A stretch of 10,114 nucleotides of DNA from a virus (lineage: Duplodnaviria; Heunggongvirae; Uroviricota; Caudoviricetes). The stretch is from IMG/VR virus record IMGVR_UViG_2690316097_000011; one strand, 5' to 3'. A program made the position numbers and the translations under genes. The notes under the pieces are model-generated. The model ran no database searches. It saw nothing but the letters and a program-made list of their open reading frames with translations, and had not been told where the DNA came from. Below, one piece after another: positions 1-9,931 of the stretch. Numbering within the stretch: position 1 is the stretch's first letter; each line of letters begins with the position of its first letter.

Positions 1-54
1 GAGCTGCATGACAAAGTCATCGGGCATTATCTGAACATAAAACACTACCAATAA
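1..54 (+). CDS. insB: IS1 transposase InsB, C-terminal fragment (partial CDS, 5' end outside window)
   Basis: Frame 1 translates to ELHDKVIGHYLNIKHYQ followed by TAA at 52-54, the known C-terminus of IS1 InsB. Confidence 0.8.
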   Translation, partial: ELHDKVIGHYLNIKHYQ

Positions 55-69
55 GTTGGAGTCATTACC
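1..69 (+). mobile_element. IS1 right end (3' terminus with terminal inverted repeat); element continues upstream of the window
   Basis: Positions 1-69 match the canonical IS1 3' end, finishing ...AACATAAAACACTA(C)CAATAAGTTGGAGTCATTACC at 69. One C/T difference from the IS1 sequence as I recall it. Confidence 0.9.
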
Positions 70-201: not shown

Positions 202-579
202 TCAAATCCCCAGTGAAGTCACCATTGTCCTGAGAACTTGCAGAACGTCATGATCATAACTTCCATCCAAACCGCGACGGCGAATTGCTTCTCGTATTAC
301 CGGAAGCAGTTCGCTGGAAATCTCGGTGCATATTTCACCTGATAATACGCTTGGCTCAAGTGAGAATATTGGTGAACTTACGGTCTTGGTCTCGACAGTT
401 TCAGAGTCAGTGCCAACATTATAAAGCTCAACGAAAGCGGTCTTGATTTTCCGGGCCAGATCTTTTGCTGGCTCGCTTGCAATATCTTTCCCGATTTCTC
501 GCAGCACAGAATGCAATGTATGAGCTGCTGTTTTCTGTACATCAGACGGTAAATCTTTAAATTCCATCGTCAGCCTCAT
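202..579 (-). CDS. hypothetical protein, distal gene of the leftward operon
   Basis: 125 aa ORF. Its ATG at 579 overlaps the upstream stop (TGATG). An in-frame ATG at 567 with a GAGG Shine-Dalgarno 6 nt upstream is an alternative start (121 aa). No recognisable domain by eye. Confidence 0.55.
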   Translation of the reverse strand: MRLTMEFKDLPSDVQKTAAHTLHSVLREIGKDIASEPAKDLARKIKTAFVELYNVGTDSETVETKTVSSPIFSLEPSVLSGEICTEISSELLPVIREAIRRRGLDGSYDHDVLQVLRTMVTSLGI

Positions 580-731
580 CAGTCAGTGTTTCTGGCTAAC
601 CAGCAACGCGCGCCAGATTCGGTTTTAAACGTTTTGCTTTTGGTATACGTCATGGCGGTAAACGTTCCATCCTGGTTAGGGAACACGCCGCACACCAGAG
701 ATTCGTTGTTGCCAAGATCGATAGTATCCAT
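579..731 (-). CDS. small hypothetical protein (50 aa from the ATG at 731; ORF could extend to 785 giving 68 aa)
   Basis: The ATG at 731 has a GAGG Shine-Dalgarno (aaatGAGGtcagcATG on the minus strand); the ATG at 785 has none. Stop overlaps the next gene start. First gene downstream of the OL-like operators. Confidence 0.45.
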   Translation of the reverse strand: MDTIDLGNNESLVCGVFPNQDGTFTAMTYTKSKTFKTESGARCWLARNTD

Positions 732-912
732 GCTGACCTCATTTCCCCTTAACGCCGGGGTGGCGGAACAAAAAACCTGCTGCATAGTTAAAGATTGAAC
801 CCTGCCGTCATGTTCTTACGCCTCGGGCTGGCTACTTAACCCCTGACCACTGTCTGGTAACTCGAAGTATTGCCCTGCATTCTGTGGGGCGGGGTGGGTT
901 GACGCCTGAAAC

Positions 913-954
913 AATAGCATCATTATTTTTTTTGATGTAAATAGCATCGCTATT
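913..954. promoter_or_regulatory. OL-like operator pair: two 15 bp palindromes AATAGC-N3-GCTATT
   Basis: AATAGCATCATTATT at 913-927 and the perfect palindrome AATAGCATCGCTATT at 940-954, centres 27 bp apart. The same half-site recurs between the repressor and cro-like genes. Lies between the terminator of the repressor operon and the leftward genes. Confidence 0.5.
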
Positions 955-970
955 GTTTTTTGTTGGGGCA

Positions 971-994
971 AGAAAAAACCACCCTAAGGTGGTT
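971..994 (-). terminator. Rho-independent terminator of the repressor-antitoxin-toxin operon
   Basis: 7 bp perfect stem (977-983 pairs with 988-994, AACCACC/GGTGGTT) with a 4 nt loop, followed on the minus-strand transcript by UUUUCUU. Sits 17 nt after the toxin stop codon. Confidence 0.6.
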
Positions 995-1010
995 CTGTCG
1001 GCGGGAATAA

Positions 1011-1301
1011 TTAACTGTTTTTGCCTGGATACTGTCTTCGAGAATGCACAATATTTACTACTTCTATGCTTGATGCTGTTACTCGGTAAAGGATGATGTA
1101 GTTAGGATGAGTTACAATTTCACGAAGACCAAGAACTCGCTCGCTTGGAGGATACAGGTAAGGATGCTCTGTGAGCGGCAAAACGGATGTTTCAATTCGA
1201 ATTTTCATTCTGCGTGCTGCCGCGGGATTTTCTTTAGCTATGTAGGCTACGATCTGGCGCAAATCATCACGAGCAGATGGTAGCCATAAAACGGGTAACA
1301 T
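1011..1301 (-). CDS. parE: ParE/RelE-family type II toxin
   Basis: 96 aa. Translation MLPVLWLPSARDDLRQIVAYIAKENP...IILYRV has the ParE/RelE-like length and motif pattern. Start overlaps the upstream gene stop (TAATG), typical of toxin-antitoxin pairs. Confidence 0.85.
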   Translation of the reverse strand: MLPVLWLPSARDDLRQIVAYIAKENPAAARRMKIRIETSVLPLTEHPYLYPPSERVLGLREIVTHPNYIILYRVTASSIEVVNIVHSRRQYPGKNS

Positions 1302-1495
1302 TATTCACCTCTGTGAGTTGCAGCAGCAATTTGGGCAATAATTTGTTCCATTTCCGCCATTACCTCATCATGCGGAATCGCCGGGCGGGGATCCGCGAGG
1401 CTTGCTGCTACTTTGGCCCGCAGCCATTCGTTGTAACTATTTTCTTGCTCAACTGTCTCAAATTCTGAAACCATTGGGGAAAGGACTGTACTCAT
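1301..1495 (-). CDS. paaA: PaaA-like antitoxin (ParE-associated antitoxin)
   Basis: 64 aa. Motif LSPMVSEFETVEQENSYNEWLRAKVAASLADPRPAIPHDEV resembles, from memory, PaaA2 antitoxins of the prophage-borne paaR2-paaA2-parE2 systems of E. coli O157. Good Shine-Dalgarno (AGGAGA, 8 nt spacer). Immediately upstream of the toxin. Confidence 0.75.
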   Translation of the reverse strand: MSTVLSPMVSEFETVEQENSYNEWLRAKVAASLADPRPAIPHDEVMAEMEQIIAQIAAATHRGE

Positions 1496-1514
1496 TTTAC
1501 ATATCTCCTCTGAT

Positions 1515-2015
1515 TTAGGCGCGACGGCCTTTTTGTGCAGCTAACCACCGCGCAACCGTACGATCCATTGATTCTTTTTTATCTTTCATCTCCTGAAGCA
1601 TGTGTTCTTGATCTTCTTTCGGAAAAGCTCTGAACGTATGGATTAAATCTCGTTCCATCGGCTCTACGGCAAACGGTAGTTCATCCTCTGTTTGTTCTGT
1701 GTCTGCTGGTAATGCGACTATGTTATCTTGCTGTGGTTCTCGACAATACATCCTTGCAATTTGCAGCAAATCTACCATGTCTGGCCTGATTGACTCAGGG
1801 GGAACTTTCAGTAAGCCAGCAAACTTTAGAACAGCCTCAAGGTTTAGTGGGGTTTGACCATTTAGGTAGTGACTTACCGCCCCTTGTGTTGAAAACCCCA
1901 TAATTTCCGCCGCACGTTCCTGAGTCAATCCCAACTGAGATTTCTTTGCCATCCAGATTTCTTTCAGTCTTCTGGCGGCGTTGAGGTCGGTGTCTGACAA
2001 TGATTTTCTTTTCAT
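1515..2015 (-). CDS. lambda-CI-like prophage repressor (HTH, PaaR-like), without an S24 peptidase domain
   Basis: From the ATG at 2015: MKRKSLSDTDLNAARRLKEIWMAKKSQLGLTQERAAEIMGFSTQGAVSHYLNG... aligns by eye with the lambda CI N-terminal DNA-binding domain. The C-terminal 80 aa show no Ser/Lys autocleavage motifs. The ORF can extend to a GTG at 2045. Stop lies 18 nt before the antitoxin start. Confidence 0.85.
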   Translation of the reverse strand: MKRKSLSDTDLNAARRLKEIWMAKKSQLGLTQERAAEIMGFSTQGAVSHYLNGQTPLNLEAVLKFAGLLKVPPESIRPDMVDLLQIARMYCREPQQDNIVALPADTEQTEDELPFAVEPMERDLIHTFRAFPKEDQEHMLQEMKDKKESMDRTVARWLAAQKGRRA

Positions 2016-2027
2016 ACATCCAATTCT

Positions 2028-2090
2028 AATAAGATTGCTAATCACTTTGAAATAGCATCACTATTTACTTTTAAAAATAACAGTGCTATT
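2028..2090. promoter_or_regulatory. OR-like operator region in the divergent repressor/cro-like intergenic space
   Basis: AATAGCATCACTATT at 2051-2065 and AATAACAGTGCTATT at 2076-2090, plus a weaker AATAAGATTGCTAAT at 2028-2042. Centres are 23-25 bp apart, echoing lambda OR1-3. Same half-site as the left operator pair. Confidence 0.55.
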
Positions 2091-2126
2091 AATTATGCAT
2101 TGGTAACACATCACATAGGGCGGATT

Positions 2127-2390
2127 ATGAATCTTGGAGAATATTTGCATCATTTTCATATAACCCAGAGTTCATTTGCTGAGATTGTTGGCGCATCCCA
2201 AGGGATGGTCAGCCACGTTATAACGGGGCGTGCAAAACTTACAGGAGAAAAAATATTACGTTGGTGTGAAGCAACGGGATGGGTGGTGACCCCACATGAG
2301 ATTGACAGTAAAACCTACCCCAACCCAACTGACGGCTTGCCTGCTGAGTTTCAGGCTAACACACAACCATCGGCGGGGGTTGATTCATGA
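2127..2390 (+). CDS. Cro-like / YdaS-family HTH regulator
   Basis: 87 aa from the ATG at 2127 (ORF opens at a TTG at 2100). HTH-like segment QSSFAEIVGASQGMVSHVITG. Divergent from the repressor across the operator region. Stop overlaps the next start (ATGA). Confidence 0.75.
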   Translation: MNLGEYLHHFHITQSSFAEIVGASQGMVSHVITGRAKLTGEKILRWCEATGWVVTPHEIDSKTYPNPTDGLPAEFQANTQPSAGVDS

Positions 2391-2812
2391 AAATCAAGCA
2401 TGAACACATCCGCATGGCGATGAAAGCCTGGGCGCATCCGGACGGTGAAAAAGTTCCGGCAGCTGAAATAACCAGGGTTTATTTCGAACTGGGAATGACG
2501 TTTCCGGTTCTGCATAACGACAGCAAGCACAACACGCTTTATCTCAACACCCAAAAGATTTTCCGTTGGCTGGATAAAGACACCCCTGACGCTGTTGAAA
2601 AAATTCAGGCGTTGTTACCTGCGATCGAAAGGGCAATGCCACCTCCGCTGGTGGCTCGAATGCGCAGCCACAGTTCAGCTTATTTTCGGGAACTGGTGGA
2701 GACGCATGAACGACTGGTGAGAGACGCTGATGATTTTGTCGCAGTGGCAATCGCCGGTTTCAATCAGATGAACCGTGGTGGCCCGGCAGGAAATGCTGTG
2801 GCAGTACATTGA
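2387..2812 (+). CDS. CII-like / YdaT-family protein
   Basis: 141 aa beginning MKIKHEHI and ending ...AVH, as YdaT-family proteins do. Occupies the cII position between the cro-like gene and the replication genes. Confidence 0.75.
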   Translation: MKIKHEHIRMAMKAWAHPDGEKVPAAEITRVYFELGMTFPVLHNDSKHNTLYLNTQKIFRWLDKDTPDAVEKIQALLPAIERAMPPPLVARMRSHSSAYFRELVETHERLVRDADDFVAVAIAGFNQMNRGGPAGNAVAVH

Positions 2813-2883: not shown

Positions 2884-3948
2884 ATGGCTAACGCCTGGCT
2901 CAGATTATGGCATGACATGCCAAATGACCCTAAGTGGCGAACAATTGCCAGGGTGTCAGGGCAGCCAATTGCAACAGTGATGGCAGTGTATATCCACCTC
3001 CTGGTGAGCGCGTCACGAAATGTCACGCGAGGTCACATTGATGTCACGACAGAAGATTTGGCAAGTGCGCTCGACGTGACAGAAGAGGTAATTGATTCAA
3101 TTTTGCAGACGATGCAGGGGCGGGTACTTGATGGTGATTTAATCACTGGATGGGAAAAACGCCAGGTGCTTAAAGAGGACAACGGCAATATTTCGCAAAC
3201 CGCAAAATCTCCTGCAGAGCGCAAGAGGGCGCAGCGAGAGAGGGAAAGAAAGCGGGAACAAAATGGCGATTGTCACGGCGCGTCACGAAATGTCACGCAC
3301 ATGTCACGACGAGTCACGACAGATACAGATAAAGATACAGATAAAGAAGATCAAAACACTATGGTCCATGGCGTAAAAAACGCCACGAACCAGGCAGGGG
3401 ATGTTCAGACCGTCAATCCTGGTCAGCCAGCAGGCTCGACACCGGAAGCCGATTCAGCGTATGCGCTGAAAGCCGATTCGGGCGCTGTGCAGCAGGTGAT
3501 GACCGCAAGGCCGGAGCAATCACTCCAACTGCAGCAGCCTGAAGCCGATTCCGCCATTCAGCGGGAAGCCGATCGGGTAGCCCCGGAAAACACCGGGCAG
3601 CCTGTGGGACGAGTGGATTATCCGGATGTGTTCGAACAGGTCTGGCGGGAATACCCGTTGCGTGCCGGGGCAAACCCGAAGAAATCCGCATTCAGTGCCT
3701 GGAAGGCCAGATTGCGCGAGGGGGTGCCACCAGAGACCATGCTGGATGGTGTGAGGCGTTACGCGAGATACCTGGCGGCGACCGGGAAAGCGGGAACGGA
3801 ATTTGTTCAGCGAGCGACGACGTTTTTTGGGCCGGACCGGAATTTTGAAAACCCCTGGTTGCTCCCGGTAAGCGGCACGAACAACCAGCGTTGTGTGAAT
3901 CATATTTCTGAACCGGATACCGAAATTCCGCCGGGATTCAGGGGGTGA
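2884..3948 (+). CDS. replication initiator / replisome organiser (lambda O-like, YdaU/DUF1376-type N-terminus)
   Basis: 354 aa from the ATG at 2884 (GAGG Shine-Dalgarno 5 nt upstream; GTG at 2878 possible). N-terminus MANAWLRLWHDMPNDPKWR, a low-complexity charged linker, and a C-terminal domain. Sits directly upstream of the DnaC-like gene and contains the iteron arrays. Confidence 0.8.
   Translation: MANAWLRLWHDMPNDPKWRTIARVSGQPIATVMAVYIHLLVSASRNVTRGHIDVTTEDLASALDVTEEVIDSILQTMQGRVLDGDLITGWEKRQVLKEDNGNISQTAKSPAERKRAQRERERKREQNGDCHGASRNVTHMSRRVTTDTDKDTDKEDQNTMVHGVKNATNQAGDVQTVNPGQPAGSTPEADSAYALKADSGAVQQVMTARPEQSLQLQQPEADSAIQREADRVAPENTGQPVGRVDYPDVFEQVWREYPLRAGANPKKSAFSAWKARLREGVPPETMLDGVRRYARYLAATGKAGTEFVQRATTFFGPDRNFENPWLLPVSGTNNQRCVNHISEPDTEIPPGFRG
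3009..3048. repeat. iteron cluster 1 (GTCACG core with 10-11 bp phasing) inside the initiator gene
   Basis: GTCACG at 3012, 3022 and 3043, GTCAC at 3032, and an inverted CGTGAC at 3075. A 20 bp block CGCGTCACGAAATGTCACGC is repeated at 3279-3298. Confidence 0.55.
3271..3346. repeat. iteron cluster 2 plus adjacent GATACAGATAAA tandem repeat; putative phage origin
   Basis: GTCACG at 3272, 3282, 3292, 3303 and 3313 (spacing 10, 10, 11, 10 bp), immediately followed by AGATACAGATAAAGATACAGATAAAG at 3321-3346. Confidence 0.6.
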
Positions 3949-5463: not shown

Positions 5464-5705
5464 ATGGCAAAAGTATTTACACAGGAAGAGCGGGAAAAAA
5501 TTAAGGGGCAGGTTGTTGAACTCGTACGCCAGAGTGGGCGCGAGACGTTACGACAACTGGAAGCTAAAACCGGGGCGACAAGATATTTAATAAGCGTTCT
5601 CGCCAGAGAGCTGGTTGCCAGTGGGGATGTATACAACTCTGGCTACGGGTTATTCCCGTCTGAACAGGCTCGTAAGGACTGGCAAAACGCCCGCAAAAAA
5701 CTCTC
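5464..5705 (+). pseudogene. 5' portion of a phage gene interrupted by an IS3-family remnant
   Basis: Starts MAKVFTQEEREKIKGQVVELVRQSGRETLRQLEAKTGATRY... and reads into IS-derived sequence after ...ARKKLS at about 5705. A paralogous 3' portion resumes at 6002. Confidence 0.6.
5497..5705. repeat. about 209 bp imperfect direct repeat, copy 1
   Basis: Aligns by eye with 6002-6210 at roughly 90% identity (the last 110 bp nearly identical). Both copies end ...CGCAAAAAACTCTC. Confidence 0.8.
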
Positions 5706-6001
5706 GAACGGTGGCTGAACTGGAATCTGAAATTCTGCAACTGCGTAAGGCGTTAAATGAAGCTCGCCTTGAGCGAGATATATTAAAAAAAGAACAAATG
5801 GTAGTGTCCGCTATTGCCAGTACACCTCAAAGAGATAATCGGGAAGCGCCTTCACTGATCGAAAGTTGATTTTCAGGAACCGTTCTGACAGCTTCGGCTT
5901 TGAACTCTTTAGAGTAACGTTGGGTTTTTCTGCTCATTATTAGCTCCTTCTGATGCCATTCTATTTCAGGAAGGAGTGTCCGTTAAACTCAGGCTACCTC
6001 A
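5706..6001. mobile_element. scrambled IS3-family (IS600-like) remnant made of two oppositely oriented fragments
   Basis: Minus strand 6001 to 5830: terminal repeat TGAGGTAGCCTGAGTTTAACGGACACTCC, then a Shine-Dalgarno and ATG at 5937 encoding MSRKTQRYSKEFKAEAVRTVPENQLSISEGASRLSL (OrfA N-terminus), then stop. Plus strand 5706-5793 encodes RTVAELESEILQLRKALNEARLERDILKK (OrfA leucine zipper), followed by a second terminal-repeat-like end at 5800-5829. Confidence 0.75.
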
Positions 6002-6210
6002 AAAATTAAAGGGCAGGTTGTTGAACTTGTACGTCTGAGCGGTCGCGAGACGTTGCGGCAACTGGAAGCCAAGACAGGTGCGACAAGATATCTGATGAGT
6101 GTTCTCGCCAGAGAGCTGGTTGCCAGTGGCGATGTATACAACTCTGGTTACGGGTTATTCCCGTCTGAACAGGCGCGTAAGGACTGGCAAAACGCCCGCA
6201 AAAAACTCTC
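6002..6210. repeat. about 209 bp imperfect direct repeat, copy 2
   Basis: Paralogous to 5497-5705. Begins immediately after the IS terminal repeat at 6001. Confidence 0.8.
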
Positions 6211-7019: not shown

Positions 7020-8852
7020 ATGGCCCGCATGTTTGATACATTAGGATTTTACATTATGAATGTGCAACATTTTGATTTTTTTACAGATAATGAGTTTTCT
7101 AATCTGGAAAGATATCAAACTTGTAAAGCCATGGCCAAAGGTTATGCGGGCAATTACAAAACCGGGCAGTCAAGGTTGATGCATGCCCGCTCATACTGCT
7201 TCAGCATCGTAGCTGCATATTGGGATACCCTTGCAAAAAAGCAAAAAAGCAGCATTAAAATGAGGGCAGTACCGCACACTGTTTACATAGAAGACATTCC
7301 ATGTGATGCACGCGAGCTCGCTGAACGAACAGGTGAGCTTATTGCTCAATTTCCGGCGGAGGACGCTGGATATCTGATTGGGTCAATTTATACGGTAATG
7401 CTGCCATCCGCTTACCGTTCGGAATTGGGGGCTTACTATACCCCCCCACCTTTGGTAGCGCGTCTCTTGGACCTGGCTGAAAAGTCTGGTGTTGATTTTT
7501 CTCATGCATCGGTTATTGATCCTGCGTGTGGTGGCGGTGCATTTTTGGCACCAGTAGCCATTCGAATGTTAAAAAAAGACAAGGGGTCTTCCCCTGAATG
7601 GATGTTGAGGAGAATCAGTCGTCGTTTAAAGGGGATAGAAATCGATCCATTTGCGGCTTGGATGAGTTTGGTATTGCTCGAATCTGTACTAATGCCACTA
7701 TGTGTAAAGGTAAAACGTAGATTGCCTGAAGATACAATTATTGTTGCTGATGCGCTTCAGCAAGATAAATTTTCTGGTTATGATCTTGTGGTAGGGAATC
7801 CGCCTTACGGACGTGTCACTCTCGATATTAAAACGAGAGAAAAATATTCTCGTTCGTTATTTGGTCATGCAAATCTATATGGATTGTTCACCGACTTAGC
7901 TGTTCGCATGGTTAAAGAGAAAACAGGAGTTATTGCATTTCTTACGCCAACTTCTTTTCTTGGTGGGCAGTATTTCACCGCGCTGCGAACCCTTTTGACC
8001 GAAAAAACTACTCCGTATGCCCTTGATTTCGTCACTGACAGGGATGGGGTCTTTGACGATGTTCTCCAGGAAACAATGTTGACAGCATTCAAGGCGGGAG
8101 AACATAAAGTTCGGGCCCAGGTATCCTCACTTGTCCCTAAGGGGTTGAACAAAGCAAAAATTGAGAAAATAGGTAATGTTGATATAGAAAAAGGTGGAGC
8201 AACGTGGCTTTTGCCACGCGTTAAAGATGATGCCTGTTTTCTTAATGTATTAAAACAGATGTCTACGCGTTTAGCTGATCTGGGATACTCAGTCTCTACA
8301 GGTCAGTTAGTCTGGAATCGATTTAAGTCGCAGTTGCGTACGACGAAAGGAAAAAATAGCTACCCATTAGTCTGGGCGGAATCAATAACTTCAGCTGGTT
8401 TTCGTTTTAGTGCAGACAGAAAAAATCATGTTCCCTATATCGATATAACCCCACAACAGGGTTTCCTTGTGACAAAATCTGAATGTGTGCTTGTTCAGCG
8501 GACAACATCGAAGGAACAGGACAGAAGGATTTTAGCGGCAATTTTACCTCAGGGATTTATAGATGAAACTGGTGGCGTAGTAGTTGAAAACCATATTAAT
8601 ATTGTATATTCAAACGGATTGTTCTCTGCGGTTCGCCCTGATGTTATTGATATGCTACTTAATTCGCATGTTGTCGATCGGGCGTTCAGGTGTATAAGCG
8701 GAAGTGTTGCTGTTTCGGCCTATGAATTGAATTCAATCCCGTTGCCTTCTCTGGAGCAGGTGATGGAGATTCAATCGTTAATTGATGCTGGCGTCCACAG
8801 ACGGATTATTGAGAGAACTATCGCTGGTTTCTATGGAGTGATGATTGCATGA
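7020..8852 (+). CDS. gamma-class N6-adenine DNA methyltransferase (Eco57I/PstI-like family)
   Basis: 610 aa. Motif X (GAYYTPPPLV), motif I (VIDPACGGGAFL) and motif IV (VVGNPPYGR) occur in the gamma-class order, with a roughly 300 aa C-terminal region as a probable target-recognition domain. Alternative ATGs at 7029 and 7056. About 27% GC at the 5' end. Confidence 0.9.
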   Translation: MARMFDTLGFYIMNVQHFDFFTDNEFSNLERYQTCKAMAKGYAGNYKTGQSRLMHARSYCFSIVAAYWDTLAKKQKSSIKMRAVPHTVYIEDIPCDARELAERTGELIAQFPAEDAGYLIGSIYTVMLPSAYRSELGAYYTPPPLVARLLDLAEKSGVDFSHASVIDPACGGGAFLAPVAIRMLKKDKGSSPEWMLRRISRRLKGIEIDPFAAWMSLVLLESVLMPLCVKVKRRLPEDTIIVADALQQDKFSGYDLVVGNPPYGRVTLDIKTREKYSRSLFGHANLYGLFTDLAVRMVKEKTGVIAFLTPTSFLGGQYFTALRTLLTEKTTPYALDFVTDRDGVFDDVLQETMLTAFKAGEHKVRAQVSSLVPKGLNKAKIEKIGNVDIEKGGATWLLPRVKDDACFLNVLKQMSTRLADLGYSVSTGQLVWNRFKSQLRTTKGKNSYPLVWAESITSAGFRFSADRKNHVPYIDITPQQGFLVTKSECVLVQRTTSKEQDRRILAAILPQGFIDETGGVVVENHINIVYSNGLFSAVRPDVIDMLLNSHVVDRAFRCISGSVAVSAYELNSIPLPSLEQVMEIQSLIDAGVHRRIIERTIAGFYGVMIA

Positions 8853-9931
8853 ATCTGCCTGTTGTTCCCCCATTGAATGTTATCCGGGAAAGATTACAAT
8901 TAATTTTCCCTGAAGGGACTGAGAATCGTGGATATTTAATTCGGGAAATAGCTGCAAAAACAATTTTTGTCATGTTTTATGCTGGTGCGGTTGAGGGGCT
9001 GGGGCGATGGATAAGGCCCAGCCAGGTTGTAAGTATGGGAGATTCGCAGGCTGCTCTTACTGATGATGCGTCCAGAGAAAGCTGGGTAAAGATGACTTTC
9101 TCTAAACAAAAGATAAGGCCTGCTGATGCATGGTATGCGGAAAATACGCGTGAGCCAATACGTGATGAAACTATAAAAAATGGCCTAATACCTTGCAATG
9201 CAATTGTTGAGCGTAAAGGTATACCCACCACATCCTCTCGTCCTCGTTACAGTTTGAATCGCTCTTTTGCAGCACTCTTTGATGCCGGGCTTGAAGGAGA
9301 TTCGCTGCTGAGTGCAATAAGTTCCTGGCAAGAAAATCATTTGAACAAAGCCGCTCTTGCTAGGTTGCGTTTATTGAAATCAGGGGCAGTGATTGCTGCT
9401 GATGCCGTAGTCGTCACTTTCCCAAATGGAGAGAAGAGAACTTTAGCTCCGGGCCCGTCAAGTACAATAGCTAAGGCCGTCATCGAAGTTTTTGCTCCTA
9501 ATTTTCTTAAGAATCCAACTGTGCTCTGGTTGTCTGAATCCGGGAATAAAGTTGTTGCTCAGGATGATGTATTGGCAAAAGCATTGGGGCTGAATATTGA
9601 TGCCTCAAAAGCACTTCCAGATATTATTTTGATTGATTTGGGAGAGGACCGAACGGGTTCGGACATGCTTGTAGTTTTCACTGAAGTAGTTGCGACAGAT
9701 GGGCCTATAAACAGGGAACGAAAAGTTACTCTCACTCATTTGGCTATTGACGCTGGGTTCAGCGAGAAAAATCTTGCATTCCTTACGGCATTTATGGACA
9801 GAAGTGCTCTGCCTTTTAAAAAGGCAATACCAGAATTGGCGTGGGGATCTTATGCATGGTTTGCTTCTGAACCGGAGCACTTAATTGATCTTCGGGATGG
9901 TTATCCGGTAAAGATCAGCCAGAGAAAATGA
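8849..9931 (+). CDS. putative restriction endonuclease partner (possibly BsuBI/PstI family); function unverified
   Basis: 360 aa, translationally coupled to the methyltransferase (ATGA overlap at 8849-8852). Size and two-domain layout fit BsuBI/PstI-type endonucleases. A candidate nuclease core PDIILIDLGED...LVVFTEVVATDGPINRERK is only weakly PD-(D/E)xK-like. Confidence 0.55.
   Translation: MNLPVVPPLNVIRERLQLIFPEGTENRGYLIREIAAKTIFVMFYAGAVEGLGRWIRPSQVVSMGDSQAALTDDASRESWVKMTFSKQKIRPADAWYAENTREPIRDETIKNGLIPCNAIVERKGIPTTSSRPRYSLNRSFAALFDAGLEGDSLLSAISSWQENHLNKAALARLRLLKSGAVIAADAVVVTFPNGEKRTLAPGPSSTIAKAVIEVFAPNFLKNPTVLWLSESGNKVVAQDDVLAKALGLNIDASKALPDIILIDLGEDRTGSDMLVVFTEVVATDGPINRERKVTLTHLAIDAGFSEKNLAFLTAFMDRSALPFKKAIPELAWGSYAWFASEPEHLIDLRDGYPVKISQRK

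What the first reader, a model, noticed from the sequence alone, without database searches (positions are those of the whole stretch)
913..2090. Shared 15 bp palindromic operator AATAGC-N3-GCTATT at both flanks of the immunity module
Two sites lie left of the toxin-antitoxin/repressor operon (913-927 and 940-954, the latter a perfect palindrome). Two to three lie in the repressor/cro-like intergenic region (2028-2042 weak, 2051-2065, 2076-2090). This is the OL/OR arrangement of lambdoid phages and implies that the repressor controls both the leftward operon (202-785) and the rightward replication operon.
Basis: seen in the sequence. Interest (0 to 1): 0.5.

Follow-up and report, generated by a model that had tools for sequence, protein, structure and literature searches.

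The report
Prophage repressor operators at OL and OR
Four copies of a 15-17 bp inverted repeat flank the repressor/toxin-antitoxin operon of a decayed lambda-like prophage and are almost certainly the binding sites of its repressor, an ordinary lambda-style switch whose particular DNA specificity has apparently not been described.

Summary
AATAGC-N3-GCTATT occurs four times in the window at up to 2 mismatches (913, 940, 2051, 2076) against 0.43 expected. A matrix trained only on other loci scores these sites at 20-24 bits; the next best position scores 4.2. The fifth site (2028-2042) is at chance level by sequence and is supported only by its conserved position.

The interpretation (lambda-like OL/OR) is supported. 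The sites overlap predicted PR, PRM and PL promoters in a lambda-like layout. They recur as pairs in every locus that encodes the same repressor DNA-binding domain (47-99% identity, different cargo genes). They are absent from sister prophages with the same backbone but a different repressor domain, including the characterised CP-933P. A blind scan of public genomes and viral contigs for the tandem motif recovered homologues of this domain next to it in 20 of 64 and 60 of 90 stretches.

The module is a heteroimmune relative of the published CP-933P PaaR2/YdaS/YdaT switch. It has orthologous YdaT, PaaA2 and ParE2. Its repressor joins a lambda-CI-like N-terminal domain to a PaaR2-like C-terminus, and its Cro-like protein and operators are different. 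I rate it a new member of a known kind, of modest interest. No binding was tested.

The parts
1..68 (.). End of an IS1 copy that truncates the leftward (PL) operon
   Evidence: The reverse complement of 1-68 reads GGTAATGACTCCAACTTATTGGTAGTG..., which I recognise as an IS1 terminal sequence (own knowledge). Near-identical genomes (L168-L171) have an IS1 InsA/DDE_Tnp_IS1 gene abutting this point.
202..579 (-). Second gene of the leftward operon; 125 aa, no family match
   Evidence: ORF list; no Pfam hit.
579..731 (-). First gene of the leftward operon; YdfA-like DUF1391, about 50 aa from the MDTIDLG start
   Evidence: Pfam PF07151, E=3e-28. Annotated as a 50-51 aa DUF1391 protein in relatives.
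911..941 (-). Predicted PL: -35 TTTACA (941->936), 19-bp spacer, TG-extended -10 TGcTATTGT (919->911)
   Evidence: Read from the sequence. E. coli relatives L001-L003 have the same hexamers with a 17-bp spacer. Not reported by the consensus scan, which allows 16-18 bp spacers. Inferred.
913..927 (.). OL1, AATAGCATCATTATT; overlaps the PL spacer and -10
   Evidence: 20.3 bits. Conserved position in L001-L003, L004, L006, L008 and L012.
928..933 (.). Variable T-run between OL1 and OL2, inside the PL spacer
   Evidence: 4 T in L001 and in IMG/VR copies, 6 T in the window and L169-L171, 7 T in L168.
940..954 (.). OL2, AATAGCATCGCTATT (perfect half-sites); abuts the PL -35
   Evidence: 24.0 bits.
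968..996 (-). Intrinsic terminator of the repressor-paaA2-parE operon: GAACCACC-UUAG-GGUGGUUU followed by a U-tract
   Evidence: Fold -15.1 kcal/mol, z=-2.84. The hairpin is conserved in L001-L003.
1011..1301 (-). ParE-family toxin (ParE2 orthologue)
   Evidence: Pfam PF05016, E=2e-17. PDB 5cw7, E=7e-37. 67% identical to CP-933P ParE2.
1301..1495 (-). PaaA2 antitoxin
   Evidence: Pfam PF21217, E=3e-23. PDB 3zbe, E=1e-23. 75% identical to CP-933P PaaA2.
1515..2015 (-). CI-like repressor, 166 aa: lambda-CI-type N-terminal HTH domain, a linker, and a PaaR2-type C-terminal 44 aa; no S24 peptidase domain
   Evidence: Pfam HTH_3 only. Lambda CI N-terminal domain 1lmb, E=3e-9 over residues 2-81. Only residues 123-166 align to PaaR2, at 52% identity.
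2023..2051 (-). Predicted PRM: -35 TTCAAA (2051->2046), 17-bp spacer, -10 TAGAAT (2028->2023). The -10 ends 7 nt before the ATG at 2015, which predicts a leaderless mRNA
   Evidence: Consensus scan. The same geometry is seen in L002, L003, L006 and L012. CP-933P paaR2 is experimentally leaderless. Here it is inferred.
2028..2042 (.). OR3 candidate, AATAAGATTGCTAAT; weak match over the PRM -10 and spacer
   Evidence: 3 mismatches and 2.8 bits, which is chance level. A degenerate site AATA(A/G)(G/T)-(A/T)TT-(G/A)(C/T)TAAT sits at the same position, 23 bp from OR2, in all enterobacterial loci and reaches 2 mismatches in L012. That conservation cannot be separated from conservation of PRM itself.
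2051..2065 (.). OR2, AATAGCATCACTATT; lies between the -35 of PRM and the -35 of PR, centred about -43 from the predicted PRM start
   Evidence: 20.7 bits. Its centre is the most variable stretch of the region among 25+ unique OR sequences, while AATAG/CTATT stay fixed.
2064..2092 (+). Predicted PR: -35 TTTACT (2064-2069), 17-bp spacer, TG-extended -10 TGcTATTAA (2084-2092)
   Evidence: Read from the sequence. It matches 8 of 12 hexamer positions, below the scan's threshold of 9. The segment TTTAC(T/A)-N17-TATT is conserved in relatives. Inferred.
2076..2090 (.). OR1, AATAACAGTGCTATT; overlaps the PR spacer and -10
   Evidence: 23.6 bits. Nearly invariant among relatives.
2127..2390 (+). Cro-like HTH protein, 87 aa; its recognition helix SQGMVSHVITG resembles the repressor's TQGAVSHYLNG
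   Evidence: Pfam HTH_3, E=4e-4, 20.8 bits, below the 23-bit gathering cut-off. No similarity to CP-933P YdaS. 61-85% identical to the cro genes of motif-bearing enterobacterial loci.
2380..2397 (.). Perfect YdaT (CII-like) operator OM, TTGATTCATGAAAATCAA, at the cro/ydaT junction
   Evidence: It matches the footprinted CP-933P site and its location (PMC9986795).
2387..2812 (+). YdaT, the CII-equivalent
   Evidence: Pfam PF06254. PDB 8bt1, E=3e-70. 77% identical to CP-933P YdaT.

Best explanation
The four strong sites are the operators of the prophage's CI-like repressor (1515-2015) and, very probably, of its Cro-like protein (2127-2390). OR1 and OR2 lie between the divergent repressor and cro genes. 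OL1 and OL2 lie just beyond the terminator of the repressor-paaA2-parE operon.

Inferred mechanism: repressor dimers bind each 17-bp dyad through a lambda-CI-type helix-turn-helix domain, reading the outer AATAG of each half-site. At OR, occupancy of OR1 (over the extended -10) and OR2 (at the -35) blocks PR and so silences cro-ydaT and the replication genes. OR2, centred about -43 from the leaderless PRM start, is placed to stimulate PRM as in lambda and CP-933P. A weak third site over the PRM -10 could give negative autoregulation. At OL, the same pair geometry blocks PL and the leftward ydfA-type operon. The PaaR2-like C-terminal domain may mediate higher-order oligomers and OL-OR looping over 1.1 kb. 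Cro would use the same sites with the opposite preference. The toxin-antitoxin genes are cargo expressed from PRM, in the position of lambda rexAB.

Shown by sequence and comparison: the sites, their enrichment, their co-occurrence with the repressor domain, and the promoter overlap. Inferred: binding, order of occupancy, activation, looping, and the leaderless start.
For: Enrichment: 4 hits against 0.43 expected; an independent matrix gives 20-24 bits against 4.2 for the next best position.

Conserved pairs: in the loci compared (L001-L004, L006, L008, L012) the OR pair is 25 bp centre to centre, and a second pair, 24-27 bp apart, lies downstream of the repressor operon. Repressor identity across L001-L009 and L012 runs from 47 to 99%. 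The cargo differs between loci: ParE/PaaA2, HigB plus an HTH protein, HipA_2+DUF3037, and genes without a family match. Half-sites are invariant while the site centres are the most variable part of the region.

Negative controls: L010/L011 and CP-933P (L013) share YdaT, PaaA2-ParE and the PL leader; L010/L011 also share the DUF1391 gene. They carry a different repressor DNA-binding domain and lack the motif.

Reverse test: scanning 185,579 species genomes and IMG/VR for the tandem motif gave 64 and 90 stretches. Of these, 20 and 60 have a homologue of this N-terminal domain within about 1.5 kb, from Marinobacter, Acinetobacter, Collimonas, Psychrobacter, Citrobacter, Rouxiella and others. The Acinetobacter loci have the repressor domain but no detectable cro homologue.

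The repressor domain is homologous to the lambda CI N-terminal domain. The recognition helices of repressor and cro are invariant in the motif-bearing enterobacterial loci compared, and they match each other within each of three immunity types. PRM was found by the consensus scan.

The experimental precedent for OR, OL, PR, PRM and PL control, a leaderless repressor and an octameric repressor is in the homologous CP-933P switch (PMC8630535).
Against: No binding, footprint or reporter data exist for this repressor.

PR and PL match the sigma-70 consensus only moderately (4 of 6 in three hexamers, 5 of 6 in the PL -35, plus a TG extension) and were not called by the scan.

The third OR site is at chance level by sequence, and no third OL site is detectable, so the lambda three-site scheme is not fully met.

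In this window PL has a 19-bp spacer and OL1-OL2 are 27 bp apart rather than 25, so leftward control may be vestigial here.

Some loci with the tandem motif (Burkholderiales) show no detectable homologue of the domain.
Confidence: 0.85

Rival explanations
1. The sites are bound only by the Cro-like protein or by another factor, for example the PaaA2-ParE complex autoregulating the toxin-antitoxin operon as in classical type II systems, and not by the CI-like repressor.
For: Cro-like genes co-occur with the motif in most enterobacterial and several other loci. Classical type II antitoxin-toxin complexes bind operators in their own promoters (PMC8630535 introduction).
Against: The motif is present in loci with this repressor domain that have no ParE/PaaA2; these carry HigB plus an HTH protein, HipA_2, or genes without a family match. 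It is absent from loci that do carry PaaA2-ParE but have another repressor domain. The Acinetobacter loci have the motif and the repressor domain but no detectable cro homologue. In the paaR2 system, regulation is by the third gene, PaaR2 (PMC8630535).
Confidence: 0.05
2. The repeats are duplicated promoter architecture: AT-rich -35, extended -10 and UP-like elements shared by PR and PL. They would not be protein operators, and the dyad symmetry would be incidental.
For: The right half-site GCTATT of OR1 and OL1 doubles as the TGcTATTxx extended -10. PR and PL regions are alignable beyond the sites.
Against: Both half-sites are conserved symmetrically, including the halves that lie outside any promoter hexamer. 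OR2 and OL2 lie upstream of the -35. The centres drift while the half-sites stay fixed. The motif tracks a specific DNA-binding domain across orders of Proteobacteria whose promoter contexts differ.
Confidence: 0.05
3. Chance clustering of an AT-rich palindrome in AT-rich intergenic DNA.
For: AT-rich genomes yield many unrelated matches to the degenerate tandem pattern, including plain hairpins (19 of 64 stretches) and low-GC viral contigs.
Against: 4 hits against 0.43 expected, all within two intergenic regions. There is a 16-bit gap to the next best window position. Only two off-target hits at up to 2 mismatches occur in about 83 kb of related loci. The sites are conserved across divergent loci.
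Confidence: 0.01

Closest known systems
CP-933P (Sp12) immunity switch of E. coli O157:H7: PaaR2 / YdaS / YdaT with paaA2-parE2 (Jurenas et al. 2021, PMC8630535; Prolic-Kalinsek et al. 2023, PMC9986795)
   Same: The gene order is the same: PL, then parE-paaA2-repressor on the left, then cro-like and ydaT and the replication genes on the right. YdaT is 77% identical, PaaA2 75% and ParE2 67%. The YdaT OM site is identical and sits at the cro/ydaT junction. The repressor C-terminal 44 aa are 52% identical to PaaR2. The PL leader is conserved. The repressor start is predicted to be leaderless. Operator clusters lie at both OR and OL, and both were shown experimentally in CP-933P to be controlled by PaaR2 and YdaS.
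   Different: The repressor DNA-binding domain is unrelated to that of PaaR2: it is lambda-CI-like, and the protein is 166 aa against 123 aa. The Cro-like protein shows no similarity to YdaS. The operators are AATAGC-N3-GCTATT rather than 18-bp palindromes with half-site GTTTAGTAA, which are absent from the window. This is a different immunity specificity.
Bacteriophage lambda OR/OL-CI-Cro switch
   Same: The repressor N-terminal domain is homologous to the lambda CI N-terminal domain, including a basic N-terminal arm (1lmb, E=3e-9). The operators are 17-bp pseudo-dyads. Centre-to-centre spacings are 25 and 23 bp; lambda's are 24 and 23 (own knowledge). OR2 lies about -43 from PRM; in lambda it is about -42 (own knowledge). 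A leaderless cI, a PRM-expressed cargo slot (rexAB in lambda, a toxin-antitoxin pair here), and a second operator cluster at PL are also shared.
   Different: There is no S24/LexA-type C-terminal domain, so RecA-mediated cleavage is not expected. The half-site sequence differs (lambda's is TATCACC). Only two clear sites exist per operator. The OL-OR distance is 1.1 kb; lambda's is about 2.3 kb (own knowledge). The CII function is supplied by the unrelated YdaT.
Phage 434 repressor/Cro pair
   Same: Repressor and Cro carry near-identical recognition-helix signatures (here QGAVSHY and QGMVSHV) and presumably read the same outer operator bases, with a non-contacted, variable centre (the 434 comparison is from my own knowledge and was not tested).
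   Different: No close sequence relationship was tested. The operator length and sequence differ.

Membership tests
Lambdoid OR/OL operator-controlled immunity region | Divergent repressor and cro-like genes separated by a short intergenic region that carries repeated dyad sites | tested here: met
   The 111-bp intergenic region (2016-2126) holds two strong sites and one weak site.
Lambdoid OR/OL operator-controlled immunity region | The same operator sequence is repeated at a second cluster, over a leftward early promoter beyond the repressor operon | tested here: met
   Sites at 913-927 and 940-954 lie over the predicted PL, downstream of the terminator at 968-996. The arrangement is conserved in relatives.
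Lambdoid OR/OL operator-controlled immunity region | Operators overlap the -10 and -35 elements of PR, PRM and PL | tested here: inconclusive
   PRM was called by the scan. PR and PL were identified by eye: they match 4 of 6 in three hexamers and 5 of 6 in the PL -35, plus a TG extension, and are conserved in relatives. No transcription start data exist.
Lambdoid OR/OL operator-controlled immunity region | Three operator sites per cluster | tested here: inconclusive
   OR3 has 3 mismatches and 2.8 bits and is only positionally conserved. No OL3 was found.
Lambdoid OR/OL operator-controlled immunity region | The repressor physically binds the sites and represses PR and PL | not testable with these tools
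   This needs a gel shift, footprint or reporter assay. Indirect support comes from the co-occurrence of motif and DNA-binding domain.
Lambda CI / LexA-type cleavable repressors | C-terminal S24 peptidase (autocleavage) domain | tested here: not met
   Pfam finds only HTH_3 and HTH_31. The C-terminus aligns to PaaR2. PDB matches cover residues 2-90 only.
Lambda CI N-terminal DNA-binding domain family | Sequence homology to the CI N-terminal domain, including the N-terminal arm | tested here: met
   1lmb, 1rio and 3bdn, E=3e-9 to 1e-8 over residues 2-81/90. tblastn gives 31% identity to lambda cI.
CP-933P-type PaaR2-PaaA2-ParE2 / YdaS-YdaT module | paaA2-parE2 immediately downstream of, and co-oriented with, the repressor gene | tested here: met
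   Pfam PF21217 and PF05016; PDB 3zbe and 5cw7.
CP-933P-type PaaR2-PaaA2-ParE2 / YdaS-YdaT module | YdaT orthologue with its TTGATT-N6-AATCAA site at the cro/ydaT junction | tested here: met
   PDB 8bt1, E=3e-70; a perfect site at 2380-2397; the location is as published.
CP-933P-type PaaR2-PaaA2-ParE2 / YdaS-YdaT module | Repressor orthologous to PaaR2 over its DNA-binding domain | tested here: not met
   Only the C-terminal 44 aa align, at 52% identity; the N-terminal domain gives no hit.
CP-933P-type PaaR2-PaaA2-ParE2 / YdaS-YdaT module | Cro-like protein orthologous to YdaS, and operators of the GTTTAGTAA type | tested here: not met
   No BLASTP hit to YdaS. No GTTTAGTAA palindromes in the window. 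No AATAGC-type sites in CP-933P.
CP-933P-type PaaR2-PaaA2-ParE2 / YdaS-YdaT module | Leaderless repressor mRNA | not testable with these tools
   Predicted only. The PRM -10 ends 7 nt before the ATG, and there is no Shine-Dalgarno sequence. It was shown for paaR2 by 5' RACE.

The most novel reading that the evidence does not exclude
This repressor defines a widespread family of SOS-independent lambdoid repressors, found from Enterobacteriaceae to Acinetobacter, Marinobacter and Burkholderiales. The family would pair a lambda-CI-type DNA-binding domain, which reads a conserved AATAG-N5-CTATT dyad, with a PaaR2-type oligomerisation tail. It would carry a swappable cargo slot expressed from PRM (ParE/PaaA2, HigB plus an HTH protein, HipA-like kinase). 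In addition, the variable T-run in the PL spacer (4, 6 or 7 T, giving a 17-, 19- or 20-bp spacer and shifting the OL1-OL2 phasing) could act as a slipped-strand switch that tunes or silences the leftward kil/dicB-type operon in Shigella lineages.
Probability: 0.25. Interest if true: 0.5.

Novelty: new member of a known kind. Interest (0 to 1): 0.3.

Why it matters
The result assigns a concrete, testable operator sequence and promoter layout to an immunity type that occurs in 72 of 5,426 complete E. coli genomes and in a very large number of sequenced isolates whose closest named matches are Shigella sonnei.

It shows that the experimentally studied CP-933P toxin-antitoxin switch has heteroimmune siblings. 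These were made by swapping the repressor DNA-binding domain, the cro gene and the operators as one block, while YdaT, the toxin-antitoxin cargo and the repressor's C-terminal tail were kept.

The motif-to-domain link extends across several orders of Proteobacteria, so it can be used to annotate prophage switches and to predict superinfection-immunity groups. Nothing found here overturns the known lambda paradigm.

Tried and rejected
- Rfam scan of the whole window at E up to 1: only two chance-level matches.
- Conserved 115-nt PL leader (786-900), considered as a put- or nut-like structured RNA: the fold is no better than shuffles (z=+0.43).
- Literature search for six exact operator strings: no paper. 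The library is incomplete, so this is weak evidence of novelty.
- Search for 'PaaR1', to test whether this is the paaR1 type: only unrelated T6SS PAAR papers came back.
- Phage collection (INPHARED): no record carries this immunity region. Only the flanks match, and the closest repressor is lambda cI at 31% identity.
- PDB: no match for the Cro-like protein and no PaaR2-like entry for the repressor tail.
- The CP-933P operator consensus GTTTAGTAA was searched in the window and rejected.
- Many matches to the degenerate tandem pattern in low-GC genomes are simple hairpins or chance and were set aside.
- Structure prediction was not run, because a monomer model would not settle oligomerisation or DNA binding.
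Full report
**What is in the window.** The window is the early region of a lambdoid prophage.

- Leftward from about position 2015 lie a 166-aa HTH repressor (1515-2015), a PaaA2 antitoxin (1301-1495) and a ParE toxin (1011-1301).
- These are followed by a hairpin terminator (968-996; -15.1 kcal/mol, z=-2.8).
- Further left come a YdfA-like DUF1391 gene (579-731) and a 125-aa ORF (202-579). The leftward operon is cut by an IS1 end at 1-68.
- Rightward lie an 87-aa Cro-like HTH protein (2127-2390), YdaT (2387-2812), and replication genes: an ORF (2884-3948) without a Pfam match, annotated in a relative as a DnaT-like ssDNA-binding domain protein, and an IstB/DnaC-like ATPase.
- The exact repressor protein matches Shigella sonnei database entries and occurs in thousands of assemblies.
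- 72 of 5,426 complete E. coli genomes carry a full-length homologue of the region, two of them at 99% identity and the rest at about 80%.

**Check of the observation.** All five coordinates are right.

- At up to 2 mismatches, AATAGC-N3-GCTATT hits exactly 913, 940, 2051 and 2076, against 0.43 expected.
- Allowing 3 mismatches adds 2028 and one unrelated site, which is what chance gives: 6 hits against 4.4 expected.
- A weight matrix built only from sites in other loci scores the four sites at 20-24 bits and the next best window position at 4.2. The 2028 site scores 2.8 bits.
- The information sits in the outer AATA(R)(Y) of each half-site. The centre is free, and a flanking A/T makes the sites 17-bp dyads.

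**Anatomy relative to promoters.**

- The consensus scan finds PRM (TTCAAA-17-TAGAAT, 2051->2023). Its -10 ends 7 nt before the repressor ATG, so the mRNA would be leaderless.
- By eye, PR is TTTACT (2064-2069)-17-TGcTATTAA (2084-2092).
- By eye, PL is TTTACA (941->936)-19-TGcTATTGT (919->911). In the E. coli relatives L001-L003 the PL spacer is 17 bp.
- OR1 and OL1 therefore cover the extended -10 and spacer. OR2 and OL2 abut the -35.
- OR2 is centred about -43 from the PRM start.
- Centre-to-centre spacings at OR are 25 bp (OR1-OR2) and 23 bp (OR2 to the weak site), close to lambda's 24 and 23 (own knowledge).

**Comparative evidence.** I collected loci encoding repressors with the same N-terminal domain at 47-99% identity (L001-L009, L012) and compared L001-L004, L006, L008 and L012 in detail.

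- Each of those has a pair of sites 25 bp apart between repressor and cro.
- Each has a second pair, 24-27 bp apart, beyond the repressor operon.
- This holds although the cargo after the repressor differs (ParE/PaaA2; HigB plus an HTH protein; HipA_2+DUF3037; genes without a family match) and the OL-OR distance varies from about 1 to 3 kb.
- Among 25+ unique enterobacterial OR sequences, AATAG and CTATT never change, while the centre of OR2 is the most variable part of the whole region.
- The weak third site is a conserved degenerate element at a fixed position over the PRM -10. That conservation cannot be separated from conservation of the promoter itself.

**Negative controls.** Two sister prophage types serve as controls: L010/L011, with a 132-aa repressor, and the genuine CP-933P of O157:H7 (L013).

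- Both share YdaT, PaaA2-ParE and the PL leader; L010/L011 also share the DUF1391 gene.
- They encode other repressor DNA-binding domains and other cro genes.
- They have no AATAGC-type pairs; other repeats occupy OR and OL.
- Against CP-933P, the window's YdaT, PaaA2 and ParE2 are 77%, 75% and 67% identical. The repressor aligns only over its last 44 residues (52%), and the Cro-like protein does not align at all.
- In each of the three immunity types, repressor and cro share a recognition-helix signature: QGAVSHY/QGMVSHV here, QQSVQKW/QQVVSRW in L010, and SYLSQLMSGR/SYLSQMASGR in CP-933P. This fits two proteins reading one operator set.

**Reverse test.** I scanned for the degenerate tandem pattern AATARY-N3-RYTATT-N10-AATARY-N3-RYTATT without reference to any gene.

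- The set of 185,579 species genomes gave 64 stretches. Twenty have an ORF matching an HMM of this N-terminal domain, abutting the pair or within about 1.3 kb of it. The hosts include Marinobacter, Acinetobacter, Collimonas, Herbaspirillum, Psychrobacter, Pandoraea, Acidithiobacillus, Citrobacter and Rouxiella. Nineteen others are plain hairpins in low-GC genomes.
- IMG/VR gave 90 stretches, of which 60 have the domain within 1.5 kb.
- The Acinetobacter loci have the domain but no detectable cro homologue, so the motif tracks the repressor domain.

**Relation to what is known.** The domain is homologous to the lambda CI N-terminal domain, including a basic N-terminal arm. There is no S24 cleavage domain.

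The CP-933P switch has been characterised experimentally (PMC8630535):

- PaaR2 and YdaS footprint the 97-bp intergenic region and regulate PR, PRM and a PL with OL sites.
- paaR2 is leaderless.
- PaaR2 octamerises in solution.
- The operators there are 18-bp palindromes with half-site GTTTAGTAA, which are absent from this window.

YdaT's footprinted site TTGATT-N6-AATCAA is present, perfect, at the same cro/ydaT junction here. No phage record and no paper in the searchable library carries this immunity region or these operator strings.

**Verdict.** The finding is real and the lambda-like OL/OR interpretation is well supported.

What is new is modest. It is a heteroimmune member of the CP-933P-type switch, with a chimeric repressor (lambda-type DNA-binding domain, PaaR2-type tail) and a previously unreported operator sequence that is conserved with that domain across several orders of Proteobacteria.

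Caveats:

- Binding, activation, looping and the leaderless start are inferred.
- OR3 is uncertain, and there is no OL3.
- In this window the leftward arm looks vestigial: IS1 truncates the operon, and a T-run that varies between isolates (4, 6 or 7 T) stretches the PL spacer to 19 bp and the OL1-OL2 spacing to 27 bp.

Noticed in passing
window 928-933 (between OL1 and OL2, inside the PL spacer): The homopolymer T-run differs between otherwise near-identical copies. It is 4 T in E. coli L001 and in IMG/VR copies, 6 T in the window and L169-L171, and 7 T in L168. The predicted PL spacer is therefore 17, 19 or 20 bp, and the OL1-OL2 spacing 25, 27 or 28 bp. This could be decay or slipped-strand tuning of the leftward promoter.
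   Followed up: partly
window 2380-2397: A perfect copy of the footprinted YdaT (CII-like) operator TTGATT-N6-AATCAA spans the cro stop and the ydaT start, as in CP-933P. The PRE-like establishment circuit therefore seems to be retained even though the CI, Cro and operator specificity is different.
   Followed up: yes
window 1-68: An IS1 terminal sequence truncates the leftward operon after two small genes. Near-identical genomes have an IS1 transposase gene abutting this point. E. coli relatives continue into ydfB/ydfC, rha, dicB, an exonuclease and int.
   Followed up: partly
L004, L006, L008, L012 compared with window 1011-1495: The slot directly downstream of the repressor gene holds different cargo in different prophages: ParE/PaaA2, HigB toxin plus an HTH protein, HipA_2 kinase plus DUF3037, or genes without a family match. 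It is a variable PRM-expressed cargo position analogous to lambda rexAB.
   Followed up: partly
L006, L008, L012 (proteins P0018, P0020, P0022): Some relatives are 243-255 aa repressors with two HTH domains in tandem. The lambda-CI-like domain is followed by the HTH of the 132-aa family, then the shared C-terminal tail. Their loci carry AATAGC-type operators. Whether the second HTH reads another site was not examined.
   Followed up: no
window 786-900 (minus strand = PL leader): About 115 bp between PL and the DUF1391 gene are highly conserved. They are conserved across all three immunity types and are 93-96% identical in several sequenced E. coli phages. There is no Rfam match and the fold is no better than shuffles, so the reason for the conservation is unexplained.
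   Followed up: partly
window 5496-5705 and 6001-6210: A 210-bp direct repeat (91% identity) duplicates part of a DUF977 gene. Between the copies, an ORF (5615-5869) resembles a fragment of an IS3-family orfA by eye (not tested; no Pfam match), which would suggest an old insertion and rearrangement.
   Followed up: partly
window 7020-9931: A restriction-modification pair lies inside the prophage: a 610-aa Eco57I/N6_Mtase-type methyltransferase and a 360-aa BsuBI/PstI-family endonuclease, with overlapping stop and start codons.
   Followed up: partly
L017, L026, L048 (also L081, L141, L148, L161): Burkholderiales contigs carry very similar tandem or triple AATAGC-N3-GCTATT sites but no detectable homologue of the repressor domain. 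In L017, L026 and L048 the sites lie next to a small conserved ORF containing ...PRIGGFSRS.... They may be operators of a more distant or different regulator.
   Followed up: no
window 1515-2015 and 2127-2390; L010; L013: In each of three heteroimmune prophage types, the repressor and its Cro-like partner share nearly the same recognition-helix motif, while the motif differs between types.
   Followed up: partly
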